From Escherichia phage MS2: 3,398 nucleotides of DNA. The stretch lies in sequence record JQ966308.1; one strand, 5' to 3'. Below are positions 1-3,398 of the stretch, one piece after another; position 1 is the first letter of the stretch, and each line of letters begins with the position of its first letter. A program made the position numbers and the translations under genes. The notes below the pieces were generated by a model. It was not told the origin of the DNA and did not search any database. It worked only from the letters and a program-made list of their open reading frames with translations.

Positions 1-4
1 ACTC

Positions 5-1186
5 ATGCGAGCTTTTAGTGTCCTTGATCAGGAGTCCGAGACCTTCGTCCCTAGCGTCCGCGTTTATGCGGACGGGCAGGTCGAAGATAACTCGTTTTCC
101 CTAAAATACCGCTCGAACTGGACTCCCGGTCGATTTAATTCGACCGGGTCTAGAACGGAACAGTGGCACTATCCGTCCCCTTATTCTAGGGGTGCGCTCA
201 GTGTCACATCGGTAGATCAAGGTGCCTACAAGCGCTCTGGGTCATCGTGGGGTCGCCCGTACGAGGAGAAAGCCGGTTTTGGCTTCTCACTCGACGCACG
301 TTCCTGCTATAGCCTCTTCCCTGTTAGTCAGAATCTGACTTACATCGAAGTGCCGCAGAACGTTGCGAACCGGGCGTCGACCGAAGTCCTGCAGAAGGTC
401 ACTCAAGGAAATTTCAACCTTGGTGTGGCCCTAGCAGAGGCCAGGTCGACAGCCTCACAACTCGCGACGCAAACCATTGCGCTCGTGAAGGCGTACACTG
501 CCGCTCGTCGCGGCAATTGGCGCCAGACGCTCCGCTATCTTGCCCTAAACGAAGATCGGAAGTTCCGATCGAAACACGTGGCAGGCAGGTGGTTGGAGTT
601 GCAGTTCGGCTGGCTACCGCTCATGAGCGATATCCAGGGCGCATATGAGATGCTTACGAAGGTTCACCTTCAAGAGTTTCTTCCTATGAGGGCCGTACGG
701 CAAGTGGGCACTAACATTAAGTTAGATGGCCGTTTGTCGTATCCAGCTGCAAACTACCAGACTACGTGCAACATATCACGACGAATCGTGATATGGTTTT
801 ACATAAACGATGCACGTTTGGCCTGGTTGTCGTCTCTAGGTATCTTGAACCCACTAGGTATAGTGTGGGAAAAGGTGCCTTTCTCATTCGTTGTCGACTG
901 GCTCCTTCCTGTTGGGAACATGCTCGAGGGCCTCACAGCCCCCGTAGGATGCTCCTACATGTCTGGAACAGTTACTGACGTAATAACGGGTGAGTCCATC
1001 ATAAGCGTCGACGCTCCCTATGGGTGGACGGTGGATAGACAGGGCACTGCTAAGGCCCAAGTCTCAGCCATGCATCGAGGGGTGCAATCCGTATGGCCAA
1101 CAACTGGCGTATACGTGAAGTCACCTTTCTCGATGGTCCATACCTTAGACGCGTTGGCATTAATCAGGCAACGGCTCTTAAGATAG
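5..1186 (+). CDS. mat: Maturation (A / assembly) protein of an MS2-like ssRNA phage, 393 aa; pilus-binding attachment protein present at one copy per virion
   Basis: Full-length ORF from ATG at 5-7 to TAG at 1184-1186. The translation (MRAFS...LDARSCYSLFPVSQNLTYIEVPQNVANRAS...IRQRLLR) matches my recollection of the MS2 A protein over nearly its whole length and is the same size (393 aa). It is the first gene, as in all leviviruses. Confidence 0.93.
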   Translation: MRAFSVLDQESETFVPSVRVYADGQVEDNSFSLKYRSNWTPGRFNSTGSRTEQWHYPSPYSRGALSVTSVDQGAYKRSGSSWGRPYEEKAGFGFSLDARSCYSLFPVSQNLTYIEVPQNVANRASTEVLQKVTQGNFNLGVALAEARSTASQLATQTIALVKAYTAARRGNWRQTLRYLALNEDRKFRSKHVAGRWLELQFGWLPLMSDIQGAYEMLTKVHLQEFLPMRAVRQVGTNIKLDGRLSYPAANYQTTCNISRRIVIWFYINDARLAWLSSLGILNPLGIVWEKVPFSFVVDWLLPVGNMLEGLTAPVGCSYMSGTVTDVITGESIISVDAPYGWTVDRQGTAKAQVSAMHRGVQSVWPTTGVYVKSPFSMVHTLDALALIRQRLLR

Positions 1187-1197
1187 AGCCCTCAACC

Positions 1198-1217
1198 GGA
1201 GTTCGAAGCATGGCTTC
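1198..1217 (+). promoter_or_regulatory. Coat gene ribosome-binding region: Shine-Dalgarno GGAG plus a small initiator hairpin presenting the AUG in its loop
   Basis: GGAG at 1198-1201 lies 8 nt upstream of ATG 1210. GAAGC (1205-1209) and GCTTC (1213-1217) are perfectly complementary and flank the ATG, as in the known MS2 coat initiation hairpin. Confidence 0.7.
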
Positions 1218-1602
1218 TAACTTTACTCAGTTCGTTCTCGTCGACAATGGCGGAACTGGCGACGTGACTGTCGCTCCAAGCAACTTCGCTAACGGGGTCG
1301 CTGAATGGATTAGCTCTAACTCACGTTCTCAGGCTTACAAAGTAACCTGTAGCGTTCGTCAGAGCTCTGCGCAGAACCGCAAGTACACCATTAAGGTTGA
1401 GGTACCAAAAGTGGCTACCCAAACCGTCGGTGGTGTACAGCTTCCTGTAGCCGCATGGCGTTCGTACTTGAATATGGAATTAACTATTCCTATTTTCGCA
1501 ACGAACGACGATTGCGCGCTTATTGTTAAGGCGATGCAAGGTCTCCTAAAAGATGGAAACCCGATCCCCTCAGCAATCGCAGCAAACTCCGGAATCTACT
1601 AA
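1210..1602 (+). CDS. cp: Major coat (capsid) protein, 130 aa including the initiator Met; also the translational repressor of the replicase gene
   Basis: ATG at 1210-1212 lies inside the longer tabulated ORF 1093..1602. The translation MASNFTQFVLVDNGGTGDVTVAPSNFANGVAEWISSNSRSQAYKVTCSVRQSS... is the MS2 coat sequence apart from about three substitutions (Q at codon 1438-1440, D at 1507-1509, A at 1516-1518). GGAG at 1198-1201 is a plausible Shine-Dalgarno. The ORF ends with tandem stops TAA TAG (1600-1605). Confidence 0.96.
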   Translation: MASNFTQFVLVDNGGTGDVTVAPSNFANGVAEWISSNSRSQAYKVTCSVRQSSAQNRKYTIKVEVPKVATQTVGGVQLPVAAWRSYLNMELTIPIFATNDDCALIVKAMQGLLKDGNPIPSAIAANSGIY

Positions 1603-1780
1603 TAGATTCCGTCCATTCCAACATGAGGATTACCCATGTCGAAGACAACAAAGAAGTTCAACTCTTTATGTATTGATCTTCCTCGCGATCTTTCTCTCGA
1701 AATTTACCAATCAATTGCTTCTGTCGCTACTGGAAGCGGTGATCCGCACAGTAGAGACTTTACAGCAATTGCTTACCTAA
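1553..1780 (+). CDS. lys: Lysis protein L, 75 aa single-gene lysis protein (Sgl) with a basic N-terminal region and a hydrophobic C-terminal membrane domain
   Basis: ORF from ATG 1553 to TAA 1778-1780 in the +1 frame relative to coat and replicase. It overlaps the coat 3' end by 50 nt and the replicase 5' end by 145 nt. The translation METRSPQQSQQTPESTNRFRPFQHEDYPCRRQQRSSTLYVLIFLAIFLSKFTNQLLLSLLEAVIRTVETLQQLLT is nearly identical to my recollection of MS2 L, with the same length and position. Confidence 0.92.
   Translation: METRSPQQSQQTPESTNRFRPFQHEDYPCRRQQRSSTLYVLIFLAIFLSKFTNQLLLSLLEAVIRTVETLQQLLT
1600..1605 (+). terminator. Tandem in-frame translational stop codons (UAA UAG) ending the coat gene
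   Basis: TAA at 1600-1602 is followed immediately by TAG at 1603-1605 in the coat frame, the same arrangement as in MS2. Confidence 0.85.
1621..1639 (+). promoter_or_regulatory. Translational operator (TR) hairpin: coat-protein binding site that represses replicase translation and nucleates packaging
   Basis: ACATGAGGATTACCCATGT folds as stem 1621-1625/1635-1639 plus 1627-1628/1633-1634, with a bulged A at 1626 and a 4-nt loop ATTA at 1629-1632. The replicase ATG (1636-1638) is in the 3' arm and the GAGGA Shine-Dalgarno (1625-1629) in the 5' arm. The sequence is identical to the MS2 operator as I recall it. Confidence 0.93.
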
Positions 1781-3273
1781 GAGATGAGTTGCTTACTAAG
1801 CATCCATCATTGGGCAATGGTAATGACGAGGCGACCCGCCGGGCTCTAGCTATTGCTAAGCTCCGGGAGGCGAATGAGCGATGTGGCCAGATTAATAGAG
1901 AAGGTTTCTTACATGACAAATCCTTGTCATGGGATCCGGATGTTTTACAAACCAGCATCCGTAGCCTTATTGGCAACCTCCTCTCTGGCTATCGTTCGTC
2001 GTTGTTTGGGCAATGCACGTTCTCCAACGGTGCCTCGATGGGGCACAAGTTGCAGGATGCAGCGCCTTACAAGAAGTTCGCTGAACAAGCAACCGTTACC
2101 CCCCGCGCTCTGAGAGCGGCTCTACTGGTCCGAGACCAGTGTGCGCCGTGGATCAGACACGCGGTCCACTACAGCGAGTCATATGAATTTAGGCTCGTCG
2201 TAGGGAACGGAGTGTTCACAGTTCCGAAGAATAATAAAATAGATCGGGCTGCCTGTAAGGAGCCAGATGCGAACATGTACCTTCAGAAAGGGGTTGGTGG
2301 CTTCATACGCCGCCGCCTCCGTTCTATCGGTATCGACCTGAATGATCAAACGATCAATCAACGTCTTGCAAAACTCGGCAGTATCGATGGTTCTTTAGCG
2401 ACGATAGATTTATCGTCTGCTTCTGACTCCATATCGGACCGCCTTGTTTGGGAGTTTCTCCCACCGCAAATGTATGCGTACCTGTCTAAAATTCGTTCGC
2501 CACGAGGAATCGTTGACGGACGTATGATCGACTGGCACCTATTTTCCACTATGGGTAATGGATTTACCTTTGAACTAGAGTCCATGATCTTTTGGGCAAT
2601 AGTTAAGGCAACCATGACTCATTTTGGTAACCTTGGAACAATTGGCATCTATGGGGACGATATCATATGTCCCACAGAGATTGCACCTCGTGTGCTAGAG
2701 GCTCTCAGCTTCTACGGTTTTAAACCGAATCAGTCGAAGACGTTCATCACGGGTCGCTTTCGCGAGTCCTGTGGTGCACATTACTTCGGCGGTGCTGATT
2801 GCAAACCGATTTATATCAAGAAACCCGTTAACAACCTCTTCGCCGTCTGTCTGTTACTTAACAGACTGCGCGGCTGGGGTGTTGTGAACGGTGTGTCAGA
2901 TCCTCGCCTCTTCGAGACTTGGAAATGGCTATCCGAACGTGTTCCCTCGATACTTTTCGGTGGGTCAAACCTTGATGCAGACTATTACGTGGTCAGCCGC
3001 CAGGAAGCCAGGAAGCGTTGCGAGGATCATCCAGTATATGGACGTACCCTTGCTCATTTCCACAGCTCTCCTCATCGGTTGTACCGCGTACCCGCCTCTA
3101 AACGCGAATTTTCTTCGCGCGAAGAGTCCGGTCGCCTCATCACTTGGTACCATAATGGCGGTCAAATTATTGACACCACTACGACCCCAAGGGTTCGCCT
3201 TGTGCGAACATCGGAATGGCTAGCGGTAGTGCCATCCTTCCCTCAGGAAGATGACACACGCGAGCTCTCCTAG
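1636..3273 (+). CDS. rep: RNA-dependent RNA polymerase (replicase beta subunit), 545 aa
   Basis: ORF from ATG 1636 to TAG 3271-3273. The N-terminus MSKTTKKFNSLCIDLPRDLSLEIYQSIASVATGSGDPH... matches the MS2 replicase. RdRp motifs are present: motif A TIDLSSASDSISD (2401-2439), motif B MGNGFTFELES (2551-2583) and motif C YGDD (2650-2661). It has the same length as the MS2 replicase, but the C-terminal roughly 120 aa are noticeably diverged. Confidence 0.96.
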   Translation: MSKTTKKFNSLCIDLPRDLSLEIYQSIASVATGSGDPHSRDFTAIAYLRDELLTKHPSLGNGNDEATRRALAIAKLREANERCGQINREGFLHDKSLSWDPDVLQTSIRSLIGNLLSGYRSSLFGQCTFSNGASMGHKLQDAAPYKKFAEQATVTPRALRAALLVRDQCAPWIRHAVHYSESYEFRLVVGNGVFTVPKNNKIDRAACKEPDANMYLQKGVGGFIRRRLRSIGIDLNDQTINQRLAKLGSIDGSLATIDLSSASDSISDRLVWEFLPPQMYAYLSKIRSPRGIVDGRMIDWHLFSTMGNGFTFELESMIFWAIVKATMTHFGNLGTIGIYGDDIICPTEIAPRVLEALSFYGFKPNQSKTFITGRFRESCGAHYFGGADCKPIYIKKPVNNLFAVCLLLNRLRGWGVVNGVSDPRLFETWKWLSERVPSILFGGSNLDADYYVVSRQEARKRCEDHPVYGRTLAHFHSSPHRLYRVPASKREFSSREESGRLITWYHNGGQIIDTTTTPRVRLVRTSEWLAVVPSFPQEDDTRELS

Positions 3274-3398
3274 TCAGCACGGCTAGGGACCCCCGTAATC
3301 GGGGTGGGTGCCGCGAAAGCGGCTATTCATCGTAACAACGATGGATAGGAGTAACCTCCTAATTCGGTGACTAACTTTGCTTGGCTAGTCACCACCCA
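3274..3398 (+). other. 3' untranslated region of the phage genome, 125 nt, with a series of short hairpins and the levivirus 3' terminus ...ACCACCCA
   Basis: Perfect small stem-loops are visible: 3291-3295/3300-3304 (CCCCG/CGGGG, loop TAAT), 3310-3314/3319-3323 (GCCGC/GCGGC, GAAA tetraloop), 3328-3332/3339-3343 (CATCG/CGATG), and 3347-3351/3356-3360 (AGGAG/CTCCT, loop TAAC). The window ends in CCCA. Confidence 0.85.
3366..3398 (+). promoter_or_regulatory. 3'-terminal hairpin plus single-stranded ACCCA tail; likely the replicase initiation site for minus-strand synthesis
   Basis: GGTGACTA (3366-3373) pairs perfectly with TAGTCACC (3386-3393), an 8-bp stem with a 12-nt loop, followed by unpaired ACCCA (3394-3398). 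Levivirus genomes end in CCCA with a terminal hairpin immediately upstream. Confidence 0.75.

What the first reader, a model, noticed from the sequence alone, without database searches (positions are those of the whole stretch)
2880..3273. Replicase diverges sharply toward its C-terminus while the upstream genes stay almost MS2-identical: possible mosaic or distinct lineage
The maturation, coat and lysis proteins and the first roughly 200 aa of the replicase are nearly identical to MS2 as I recall it. From about residue 415 to the end of the replicase (...VSRQEARKRCEDHPVYGRTLAHFHSSPHRLYRVPASKREFSSREESGRLITWYHNGGQIIDTTTTPRVRLVRTSEWLAVVPSFPQEDDTRELS) only scattered motifs are shared (GR-I-W-H-GG-I, RTSEWL, FPQE). 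This 5'-conserved, 3'-divergent gradient would fit recombination between an MS2-like and a more distant group I phage, or relaxed constraint on the replicase C-terminal domain. I cannot align from memory with certainty.
Basis: inference. Interest (0 to 1): 0.5.

Follow-up and report, generated by a model that had tools for sequence, protein, structure and literature searches.

The report
Known MS2/JS mosaic RNA phage genome
The window is the published RNA coliphage DL54, whose front two-thirds is MS2-like and whose last third comes from a different, still unnamed sister phage lineage; the mosaic was reported in 2012, but the donor lineage and the exact join can now be pinned down.

Summary
The divergence is real but already published. 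The window is coliphage DL54 (GenBank JQ966308): its replicase exactly matches AFN39800.1. Friedman et al. 2012 described DL54 and DL52 as 'JS' recombinants.

I add four points.
1. The lineage switch is not at 2880 or 3001. It lies at window 2248-2268 (replicase codons ~205-211), inside the conserved KNNKIDRAACKEPD stretch.
2. The missing parent exists. A non-mosaic genome (Logan SRR7550489, L010) is 86-100% identical to the window from 2269 into the 3'UTR. It is only ~55-67% identical upstream.
3. The collapse of similarity at 2992-3141 is not a breakpoint. It is a hypervariable, predicted-disordered loop that varies in every lineage and is absent in GA. The last five codons are frameshifted relative to MS2 over a conserved RNA hairpin.
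4. The window has a second boundary at 1784/1785. Upstream it is identical to DL52 and differs from DL16, an isolate the same group sequenced earlier, at 2 sites. Downstream it differs from DL52 by 4-15%.

That pattern needs several exchange events or a laboratory chimera. I found no mosaic-type replicase outside the two GenBank records.

Verdict: already known, moderate-low interest.

The parts
1..1784 (+). Zone A: 5' part with the maturation gene (5-1186), coat gene (1210-1602), lysis gene (1553-1780) and replicase codons 1-49. MS2-like of the DL16 type.
   Evidence: 0 differences from DL52 and 2 from DL16 (positions 1494 and 1684). DL16 itself differs from other MS2-like strains at 101-149 sites in this stretch. 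ORFs.
1785..2256 (+). Zone B: replicase codons 50-207. MS2-like, but a variant of its own.
   Evidence: 24 differences from DL16/DL52, 21 of them at codon position 3. Best database match is 96.1% (MT830620). Only 67% identical to L010. The boundary with zone A is sharp: 0/1784 against 24/472 differences, Fisher p = 3e-17.
2248..2268 (+). Crossover interval between the MS2-like part and the JS-lineage part (replicase codons ~205-211, ...AACKEPD...).
   Evidence: The last DL16-type informative sites are 2247 and 2256, and the first JS-type site is 2269. The maximum-chi-square split is 2256|2269 for the window and 2247|2256 for DL52. The surrounding 2221-2268 stretch is nearly identical in both lineages.
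2269..3398 (+). Zone C: JS-lineage segment, comprising replicase codons 212-545 and the 3' UTR.
   Evidence: 94.1% (2269-2879) and 91.4% (2880-3273) identical to the non-mosaic genome L010, against 74% and 58% to MS2. 100% identical to L010 over UTR 3274-3340. L014 gives the same pattern.
1636..3273 (+). Replicase (RdRp beta subunit) CDS, 545 aa. A chimeric protein: N-terminal ~207 aa MS2-like, the rest JS-type.
   Evidence: ORF. Exact match to AFN39800.1 and Pfam PF03431. The AlphaFold model (pLDDT 87) matches the Qbeta replicase beta subunit 3MMP_F with TM 0.79.
2992..3141 (+). Hypervariable stretch (codons 453-502), containing a predicted disordered loop at aa 458-476 (window 3007-3063).
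   Evidence: Nucleotide identity is 42% to MS2 but 86% to L010. MS2 against fr is also only 0.45-0.55 here. GA and AVE017 lack 20 aa here. pLDDT is below 50 at 458-476. dS and dN are both raised, with dN/dS of 0.09-0.13. The in-frame alignment to MS2 scores 77 against a shuffle maximum of 44, and the other frames score 16-22.
3256..3273 (+). Last five codons plus stop (TRELS*), read in a different frame from MS2 (...ASSPR*) across the nucleotide-conserved GCGAGCTCTCC. Part of a hairpin that contains the stop codon.
   Evidence: Nucleotide and protein alignments. The hairpin CCUAGUC/GGCUAGG pairs in the predicted fold, and MS2 has CCUCGGU/ACCGAGG at the same place.
3274..3398 (+). JS-type 3' UTR, 125 nt against 171 nt in MS2. 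It lacks two MS2 hairpins and keeps the terminal hairpin and ...ACCACCCA.
   Evidence: Alignment gaps of 19 nt and ~34 nt. The predicted multi-hairpin fold has z = -4.6. Identical to DL52 apart from 2 sites.

Best explanation
The window is the nearly complete genome of F-specific RNA coliphage DL54 (JQ966308). It is a three-piece mosaic.
- Positions 1-1784 are of the DL16 type of MS2-like phage (Emesvirus zinderi).
- Positions 1785-2256 are a different MS2-like variant.
- Positions 2269-3398 (replicase codons 212-545 plus the 3'UTR) come from a separate sister lineage, the 'JS' lineage. That lineage also exists as a non-mosaic genome with its own maturation, coat, lysis and replicase genes.

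The join to the JS part lies in a 21-nt interval (2248-2268) inside the most conserved stretch of the replicase gene. That is where homologous copy-choice template switching between two co-replicating RNAs is expected. The mechanism is inferred. The composition and position are shown.

The steep loss of similarity at 2992-3141 is not a breakpoint. It is a fast-evolving, probably disordered surface loop of the polymerase C-terminal region that is variable or deleted in all relatives. The final five codons differ because a 1-nt indel shifts the frame over a structurally conserved RNA hairpin.

The palm-thumb part of the replicase and the 3'UTR it must recognise travel together as one module. Any functional coupling between them is inferred.

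The confidence given applies to the composition and the position of the join. Whether the mosaic molecule arose in nature or in the laboratory is scored separately under the first rival.
For: Identity of the window. The replicase is an exact match to AFN39800.1, from a 3398-nt contig. The paper gives 3398 nt as the length of DL54. DL52 is 96.8% identical over the full length.

Mosaic structure. Informative sites split 785:6 | 25:293 at 2256/2269.

Donor lineage. L010 (Logan SRR7550489) and L014 (OGVH01004572) are JS-type on both sides of the junction. All four members of that protein cluster carry the JS-type N-terminus. L010 proteins are 58% (maturation), 75-81% (coat) and 66% (replicase) identical to MS2 and fr.

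Hypervariable loop..

Second boundary..

Published recombination claim. PMC3499819.
Against: The sequence alone does not show that the mosaic RNA molecule exists in nature.
- Zone A is identical in DL54 and DL52 and nearly identical in DL16. All three were sequenced by one group, DL52 and DL54 by primer-walking RT-PCR clones.
- The JS parts of DL52 and DL54 differ by 8.2%, and each is closer to the non-mosaic L010 (7.0% and 5.1%) than to the other.
- No mosaic-type replicase was found in about 5.8 billion protein clusters, in IMG/VR, or in the metagenome contigs.
- Only one near-full-length donor genome could be read, and its sample metadata are unknown.
Confidence: 0.85

Rival explanations
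1. Laboratory chimera. DL54 and DL52 are really JS-lineage phages, or mixed stocks. Their MS2-like 5' parts were amplified from a co-handled DL16-like template. The pieces were then joined by RT/PCR template switching or by assembly in the conserved 2221-2268 stretch during primer-walking Sanger sequencing.
For: - There are 0 differences between the window and DL52 over 1784 nt, and only 2 against DL16. DL16 differs from other MS2-like strains at 101-149 sites in that stretch. The 3' parts of the two genomes nevertheless differ by 6-15%.
- The sequencing method was primer walking with cloned amplicons.
- The true JS 5' region is only ~55-67% identical to MS2, so MS2-based primers would favour a contaminant.
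- The non-mosaic form turns up in four independent assemblies. The mosaic form appears only in the two GenBank records.
- The two 'recombinants' are not each other's closest relatives in the JS part.
Against: - Zone B of the window (1785-2256) matches no known strain better than 96.1%. Its differences are 21/24 at third codon positions, which looks like natural divergence rather than contamination by DL16.
- Synonymous divergence between the window and DL52 is equal in zone B (0.227) and zone C (0.235). That is what a shared recombinant ancestor would give.
- The isolates were reported as plaque-purified.
- Both JS strains share 2 differences from DL16 in zone A.
Confidence: 0.22
2. No recombination. 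The phage belongs to one distinct lineage whose replicase C-terminal half simply evolves faster through relaxed constraint.
For: Codons 455-502 are hypervariable in every lineage, and dN/dS rises to 0.4-1.35 in codons 503-545 within the JS lineage. The loop is predicted disordered.
Against: - The same 3' segment occurs at 91-94% identity in L010 and L014, joined to a 5' part only 55-67% identical to the window.
- The change is a step at 2256/2269, not a gradient.
- Synonymous divergence from MS2 jumps from 0.29 to 1.2 across the junction. Relaxed protein constraint cannot produce that.
Confidence: 0.02
3. The real breakpoint is at about 3001 (replicase aa 455). This is what the 2012 paper's manual alignment suggests and where all megablast matches end. 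On this view the last ~400 nt come from yet another, more distant donor.
For: Megablast matches to all MS2-like genomes stop at 2998-3001. The paper places the amino-acid divergence at residue 455. JS-MS2 amino-acid identity in 481-545 (0.40-0.50) is much lower than fr-MS2 (0.85-0.90).
Against: - L010 stays collinear at 86-100% across 2880-3340, with no step at 3001.
- Nucleotide identity to MS2 is already 74% from 2269 on.
- MS2 against fr also dips to 0.45-0.55 at the same place.
- The megablast stop is explained by the hypervariable loop together with its 3-nt indel.
Confidence: 0.04
4. The amino-acid divergence is a frameshift artefact. The 2-nt insertion reported in the paper would shift the frame, followed by compensating indels, over otherwise MS2-like nucleotides.
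For: The paper reports a 2-nt insertion at ORF4 nt 1374. The last five codons really are frameshifted relative to MS2.
Against: For aa 450-500 the in-frame alignment to MS2 scores 77 (shuffle mean 25.8, maximum 44). The two other MS2 frames score 16 and 22. Nucleotide identity there is only 42%, so the nucleotides themselves have diverged.
Confidence: 0.02

Closest known systems
Coliphage DL54 (JQ966308) and DL52 (JQ966307), 'JS' subgroup of genogroup I; Friedman, Snellgrove & Genthner 2012, Viruses 4:1548 (PMC3499819)
   Same: The window is DL54 itself: same 3398-nt length, and the replicase is an exact match to AFN39800.1. DL52 shows the same mosaic and the same junction interval. The paper already claims recombination within the replicase gene and names DL16 as a parent.
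   Different: The paper gave scattered breakpoint estimates (aa 133-273, 326-343 and 455-460). It had no JS parent. It favoured aa 455 by manual alignment. Here the join is placed at codons ~205-211, the donor lineage is identified, aa 455 is re-read as a hypervariable loop, and a second boundary at 1784/1785 is added.
MS2-like isolate DL16 (EF108464), Emesvirus zinderi
   Same: 99.9% identical to the window over 1-1784 and 94.9% over 1785-2256. The maturation, coat and lysis proteins are identical.
   Different: 75.6% identical over 2269-2879, 57.5% over 2880-3273, and a different 3'UTR architecture.
Non-mosaic JS-lineage genomes from public assemblies: L010 (Logan SRR7550489_5525, 3295 nt), L014 (ENA OGVH01004572, 1325 nt), and proteins P0121 and P0122
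   Same: 86-100% nucleotide identity to the window from 2269 to ~3340, including the hypervariable loop, the frameshifted end and the 3'UTR.
   Different: Upstream of the junction they are only 35-80% identical to the window. Their maturation protein is 57% and their coat protein 75% identical to the window's. The replicase is 544 aa with a JS-type N-terminus, and they carry their own L-like lysis ORF. No record in the phage collection resembles this 5' part at better than ~67%.
Phage fr (X15031)
   Same: Another divergent genogroup-I phage with the same gene order and a 545-aa replicase. It also dips to ~0.5 identity against MS2 at the same hypervariable stretch.
   Different: fr is diverged from MS2 along its whole genome. 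It is no closer to the window's 3' part than MS2 is (74% and 49%). It is not the donor.
Qbeta replicase beta subunit (PDB 3MMP, 4R71, 3AVT)
   Same: Same polymerase fold: TM 0.79 at 28% identity.
   Different: Different genus. It gives no information on the mosaic.

Membership tests
Coliphage strain DL54 / GI-JS subgroup | Sequence identity with the deposited record | tested here: met
   The replicase is an exact match to AFN39800.1, from a 3398-nt NCBI contig. The length equals that given for DL54. The record JQ966308 itself is not in the searchable phage collection. Sister strain DL52 is 96.8% identical.
Emesvirus (MS2-like levivirus) genome | Gene order maturation-coat-(overlapping lysis)-replicase, a coat-protein operator hairpin at the replicase start, and the 3' terminal ACCACCCA | tested here: met
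   ORFs at 5-1186, 1210-1602, 1553-1780 and 1636-3273. Rfam RF02359 at 1604-1639, 59.6 bits. The sequence ends ...CACCACCCA.
Emesvirus zinderi (species) | Replicase close enough to MS2 for species membership. I recall an ICTV criterion of about 80% RdRp amino-acid identity but did not verify it here. | tested here: inconclusive
   The whole chimeric replicase is 79% identical to the MS2-like cluster representative P0004. By segment it is 95% for aa 1-207 and 80% for aa 208-414, and about 40-50% for aa 441-545. The non-mosaic JS replicase is 66% identical to MS2.
Homologous (copy-choice) RNA recombinant | Two parental lineages, each matching one contiguous segment, with a statistically supported breakpoint | tested here: met
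   With parents DL16 and L010, informative sites split 785:6 | 25:293, chi2 = 962.
Homologous (copy-choice) RNA recombinant | Crossover inside a stretch of high local identity between the parents | tested here: met
   Positions 2221-2268 are almost identical in DL16, L010 and L014. L010-DL16 identity is 0.88 over 2203-2302, against 0.38-0.68 just upstream.
Homologous (copy-choice) RNA recombinant | The recombinant molecule is recovered independently of the original amplicon-based assembly | tested here: not met
   No mosaic-type replicase or junction-spanning contig was found in the protein collection, in IMG/VR or in the metagenome contigs. Raw reads could not be searched. Absence here is weak evidence.
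Homologous (copy-choice) RNA recombinant | Descendants of a single event form one clade and show similar divergence on both sides of the junction | tested here: not met
   Window-DL52 differences are 0/1784 in zone A, 24/472 in zone B and 82/1005 in the JS coding part. In the JS part each strain is closer to the non-mosaic L010 than to the other. More than one event, or an artefact, is needed.
Levivirus RNA replicase beta subunit (Pfam PF03431) | Family profile match, YGDD catalytic motif and RdRp fold | tested here: met
   PF03431 is precomputed for P0001. YGDD at aa 339-342 is invariant in the alignment. The fold matches Qbeta replicase 3MMP_F at TM 0.79.

The most novel reading that the evidence does not exclude
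The two JS mosaics arose by separate crossovers in the same 21-nt stretch of the replicase gene. The parents were MS2-like phages and an undescribed sister Emesvirus species. This would mean leviviruses, long regarded as almost non-recombining, have a natural recombination hot spot. That hot spot would swap a 'polymerase palm-thumb plus 3'UTR' module between species. The mirror-image reading is that the only cited example of natural levivirus recombination is a laboratory chimera.
Probability: 0.3. Interest if true: 0.55.

Novelty: already known. Interest (0 to 1): 0.3.

Why it matters
DL52 and DL54 were presented as the first natural recombinants among single-stranded RNA phages. They are used as reference 'GI-JS' strains in water-quality work.

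Finding a non-mosaic donor genome and the exact join makes the published claim testable at last. One can now design reads or amplicons that tell the mosaic from its parents. One can ask whether the exchange happened once, repeatedly, or only in the laboratory.

There are two further practical points. Read-assignment surveys that report 'DL52/DL54' may in fact be counting the non-mosaic JS phage, which carries a different coat protein. And that lineage probably deserves description as a separate Emesvirus species.

Tried and rejected
1. Frameshift as the cause of the unalignable residues 455-500. Rejected: the in-frame score is 77 against 16 and 22 in the other frames. Only the last five codons are frameshifted.
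2. A hidden overlapping gene in the alternative-frame ORF at 2891-3223 (110 aa). Rejected: the start codon is lost in DL52 and L010, there are three stops in L014, and there are stops in all MS2-like strains.
3. A second donor from 3001 onward. Rejected because L010 is collinear through that point.
4. fr, GA or AVE017 as the donor. Rejected: they are no closer to the 3' part than MS2 is.
5. IMG/VR contig L013, which looked like a 100% match across the junction. It is a distant levivirus that shares only the conserved motif.
6. A junction-spanning DNA pattern in IMG/VR gave no match.
7. A second protein search with the junction-spanning 201 aa returned only proteins of 352 aa or fewer, none above 81% identity. 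It found no mosaic fragments, but it also did not list the window's own protein, so its reach is limited.
8. Contigs of cluster members P0121-P0123 could not be looked up.
9. Friedman 2009 (primer positions) and Vinje 2004 (definition of the JS group) are not held.
10. No paper mentions SRR7550489.
11. Rfam finds nothing in the window beyond the operator hairpin.
Full report
WHAT THE WINDOW IS

The window carries the four genes of an MS2-type RNA coliphage: maturation 5-1186, coat 1210-1602, lysis 1553-1780 and replicase 1636-3273. It has the MS2 operator hairpin at 1604-1639 (Rfam RF02359) and ends in ...ACCACCCA.

Its replicase is an exact match to NCBI protein AFN39800.1, which comes from a 3398-nt contig. 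Friedman et al. 2012 give 3398 nt as the length of strain DL54, JQ966308. That record is not in the searchable phage collection. Its sister strain DL52 (JQ966307) is the best hit at 96.8% over the full length.

The paper's central claim is that DL52 and DL54, the 'JS' strains, are natural recombinants within the replicase gene. So the finding concerns a published feature of a published sequence.

CHECK OF THE OBSERVATION

Confirmed parts:
- The maturation, coat and lysis proteins are 95.9%, 97.7% and 93.3% identical to reference MS2.
- Replicase aa 1-207 is 95.2% identical to MS2.
- The C-terminal ~100 residues are only 40-50% identical.
- Every MS2-like genome's megablast match ends at 2998-3001.

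Two details are off:
Residues 415-452 are still 63% identical to MS2.
- Divergence does not start there. Replicase aa 208-414 is already only 80% identical to MS2, and nucleotide identity over 2269-2879 is 74%.

WHERE THE LINEAGE CHANGES

Sliding-window comparison with DL52, DL16, DL1, J20, FrHenna, MS2 and fr shows steps rather than a gradient.

A protein search with the diverged part of the replicase found a cluster of 544-aa replicases, P0002 with three further members, from Logan and ENA assemblies. One of these, contig L010 from SRR7550489 (3295 nt), could be read almost in full. Window identity to L010 by segment:

| Window segment | Identity to L010 |
|---|---|
| 2269-2879 | 94.1% |
| 2880-3273 | 91.4% |
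| 3274-3340 (3'UTR) | 100% |
| 1-1784 | 55.5% |
| 1785-2256 | 66.9% |

A second independent contig, L014 (ENA OGVH01004572), is JS-type on both sides of the junction. All four cluster members carry the JS-type N-terminus MSKSTKKYNSLCIDFSSDL....

Taking DL16 and L010 as parents, 1109 informative sites split 785:6 to the left and 25:293 to the right of a breakpoint between 2256 and 2269 (chi2 = 962). For DL52 the best split is 2247|2256, with counts 802:0 and 20:302.

The crossover therefore lies in 2248-2268, replicase codons ~205-211. This sits inside the KNNKIDRAACKEPD stretch, where both lineages are nearly identical at the nucleotide level. In MS2 numbering it is about nt 2373-2393.

It is close to the positions given by the paper's RAT and RDP3 analyses (about aa 133-220). 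It is not close to the manual-alignment estimate of aa 455 that the authors preferred.

WHAT THE DONOR IS

L010 encodes a maturation protein 58% identical, a coat protein 75-81% identical and a replicase 66% identical to MS2 and fr. MS2 and fr are 78.5%, 87% and 83.5% identical to each other.

L010 has its own L-like lysis ORF at 1494-1712 and an operator-like hairpin before the replicase start. No record in the GenBank phage collection resembles its 5' two-thirds at better than ~67%.

It is thus a sister lineage lying outside MS2 plus fr. It is probably an undescribed Emesvirus species. NCBI taxonomy lists only three named species in the genus.

WHY SIMILARITY COLLAPSES AT 2992-3141

This stretch (codons 453-502) is 42% identical to MS2 but 86% identical to L010. 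It is therefore not a breakpoint. Several results show it is a hypervariable segment in every lineage:
- MS2 against fr falls to 0.45-0.55 at the same place.
- GA and AVE017 lack 20 residues there.
- L014 differs from the other JS sequences by 25-42% there.
- Both dS and dN are raised, with dN/dS of about 0.1.
- In an AlphaFold model (mean pLDDT 87, fold of the Qbeta replicase beta subunit at TM 0.79), residues 458-476 have pLDDT below 50.

The segment is still homologous in frame. The alignment score to MS2 is 77, against a shuffle maximum of 44 and scores of 16 and 22 in the other two frames. A frameshift does not explain it.

A genuine frameshift exists only at the very end. The last five codons, TRELS*, overlie the nucleotide-conserved GCGAGCTCTCC, which MS2 reads as ...SSPR*. 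Both phages have a predicted hairpin at the replicase stop codon, with different stem sequences that still pair.

Within the JS lineage, codons 503-545 show dN/dS of 0.4-1.35, against 0.03 for MS2-DL16. The counts are small.

The JS 3'UTR is 125 nt against 171 nt in MS2 and lacks two MS2 hairpins.

A SECOND BOUNDARY AND AN UNRESOLVED PROBLEM

Differences between the window and its two closest relatives:

| Segment | Window vs DL52 | Window vs DL16 | DL52 vs DL16 |
|---|---|---|---|
| 1-1784 | 0 | 2 (sites 1494, 1684) | 2 |
| ~1785-2250 | 24 | 24 | 0 |
| 1785 to the 3' end, all | 110 | - | - |

- DL16 differs from other MS2-like strains at 101-149 sites over 1-1784. The near-identity of the three genomes there is therefore not due to constraint.
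- The step at 1784/1785 is highly significant: 0/1784 against 24/472, Fisher p = 3e-17.
- Zone 1785-2256 of the window is a unique MS2-like variant. Its best match is 96.1%, and 21 of its 24 differences from DL16 fall at third codon positions.
- In the JS coding part (2269-3273) the window and DL52 differ by 8.2%. Each is closer to the non-mosaic L010, at 7.0% and 5.1%.

A single ancestral crossover followed by divergence cannot give this pattern. Either several exchanges occurred at or near the same sites, or part of the mosaic was made in the laboratory.

All three genomes were sequenced by one group. DL52 and DL54 were done by primer walking with cloned RT-PCR products. The true JS 5' region is too diverged for MS2-based primers.

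Two things speak against a simple contamination story. Zone B is unique to the window. And synonymous divergence between the window and DL52 is equal in zone B (0.227) and zone C (0.235).

I found no mosaic-type replicase or junction-spanning contig outside the two GenBank records. Raw reads could not be searched, so this absence is weak evidence. I put the laboratory-chimera reading at roughly one in five.

COMPARISON WITH WHAT IS KNOWN, AND VERDICT

The feature is the JS mosaic of Friedman et al. 2012.

This analysis adds the donor lineage, a 21-nt crossover interval, the re-reading of 'aa 455' as a hypervariable disordered loop, the terminal frameshift, and the second boundary with the conflict it creates.

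None of this changes the classification: already known. It is of modest interest, mainly because the one cited case of natural levivirus recombination can now be properly tested.

Noticed in passing
L010:1-3295 (Logan SRR7550489_5525): A near-complete non-mosaic 'JS' genome. Its maturation, coat and replicase proteins are 58%, 75-81% and 66% identical to MS2 and fr. It has its own L-like lysis ORF (1494-1712) and an operator-like hairpin before the replicase start at 1568. It is probably an undescribed Emesvirus species. Nothing in the GenBank phage collection is closer than ~67% to its 5' part.
   Followed up: partly
window 1784/1785: A sharp switch. There are 0 differences from DL52 over 1-1784, then 7 differences within 1785-1815 and 24 by 2217. 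The switch falls just after the lysis gene stop at 1780. The last strictly DL16-specific site upstream is 1612, so the true boundary could lie anywhere in 1613-1785.
   Followed up: partly
window 3256-3273: The last five replicase codons are read in a different frame from MS2 across the conserved GCGAGCTCTCC. Both phages have a predicted hairpin at the stop codon, with different stems that still pair: CCUAGUC/GGCUAGG here and CCUCGGU/ACCGAGG in MS2.
   Followed up: partly
window 3274-3398: The 3'UTR is 46 nt shorter than in MS2. Two MS2 hairpins are missing (gaps of 19 nt and ~34 nt). The terminal hairpin carries a compensated G-C/A-U change relative to MS2.
   Followed up: partly
window 2891-3223, + strand, alternative frame: A 110-aa GTG-started ORF overlaps the diverged replicase end. 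It is not conserved: the start is lost in DL52 and L010, there are stops in L014, and there are stops in all MS2-like strains.
   Followed up: yes
L014:1-1325 (ENA OGVH01004572): A JS-type contig whose hypervariable stretch (window 2944-3139) differs by 25-42% from the other JS sequences, while its flanks are 93-99% identical. This shows how fast that loop turns over within one lineage.
   Followed up: no
L011 (IMGVR_UViG_3300011370_000027) and L015 (FUIF01025674): Both are essentially identical to the reference MS2 laboratory strain along their whole length. They are probably spike-in or laboratory MS2 in environmental data sets.
   Followed up: no
window 1604-1639: Canonical MS2 coat-protein operator hairpin at the replicase start (Rfam RF02359, 59.6 bits). 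It lies in the MS2-like part of the mosaic.
   Followed up: yes
PMC6963950 (Lee et al. 2019): A wastewater survey reports DL52 and DL54 as dominant 'GI-JS' strains. How reads were assigned to strains was not checked. The 5' 2250 nt of DL52 equals DL16, and the 3' part equals the non-mosaic JS phage. Strain-level counts could therefore conflate three different genomes.
   Followed up: no
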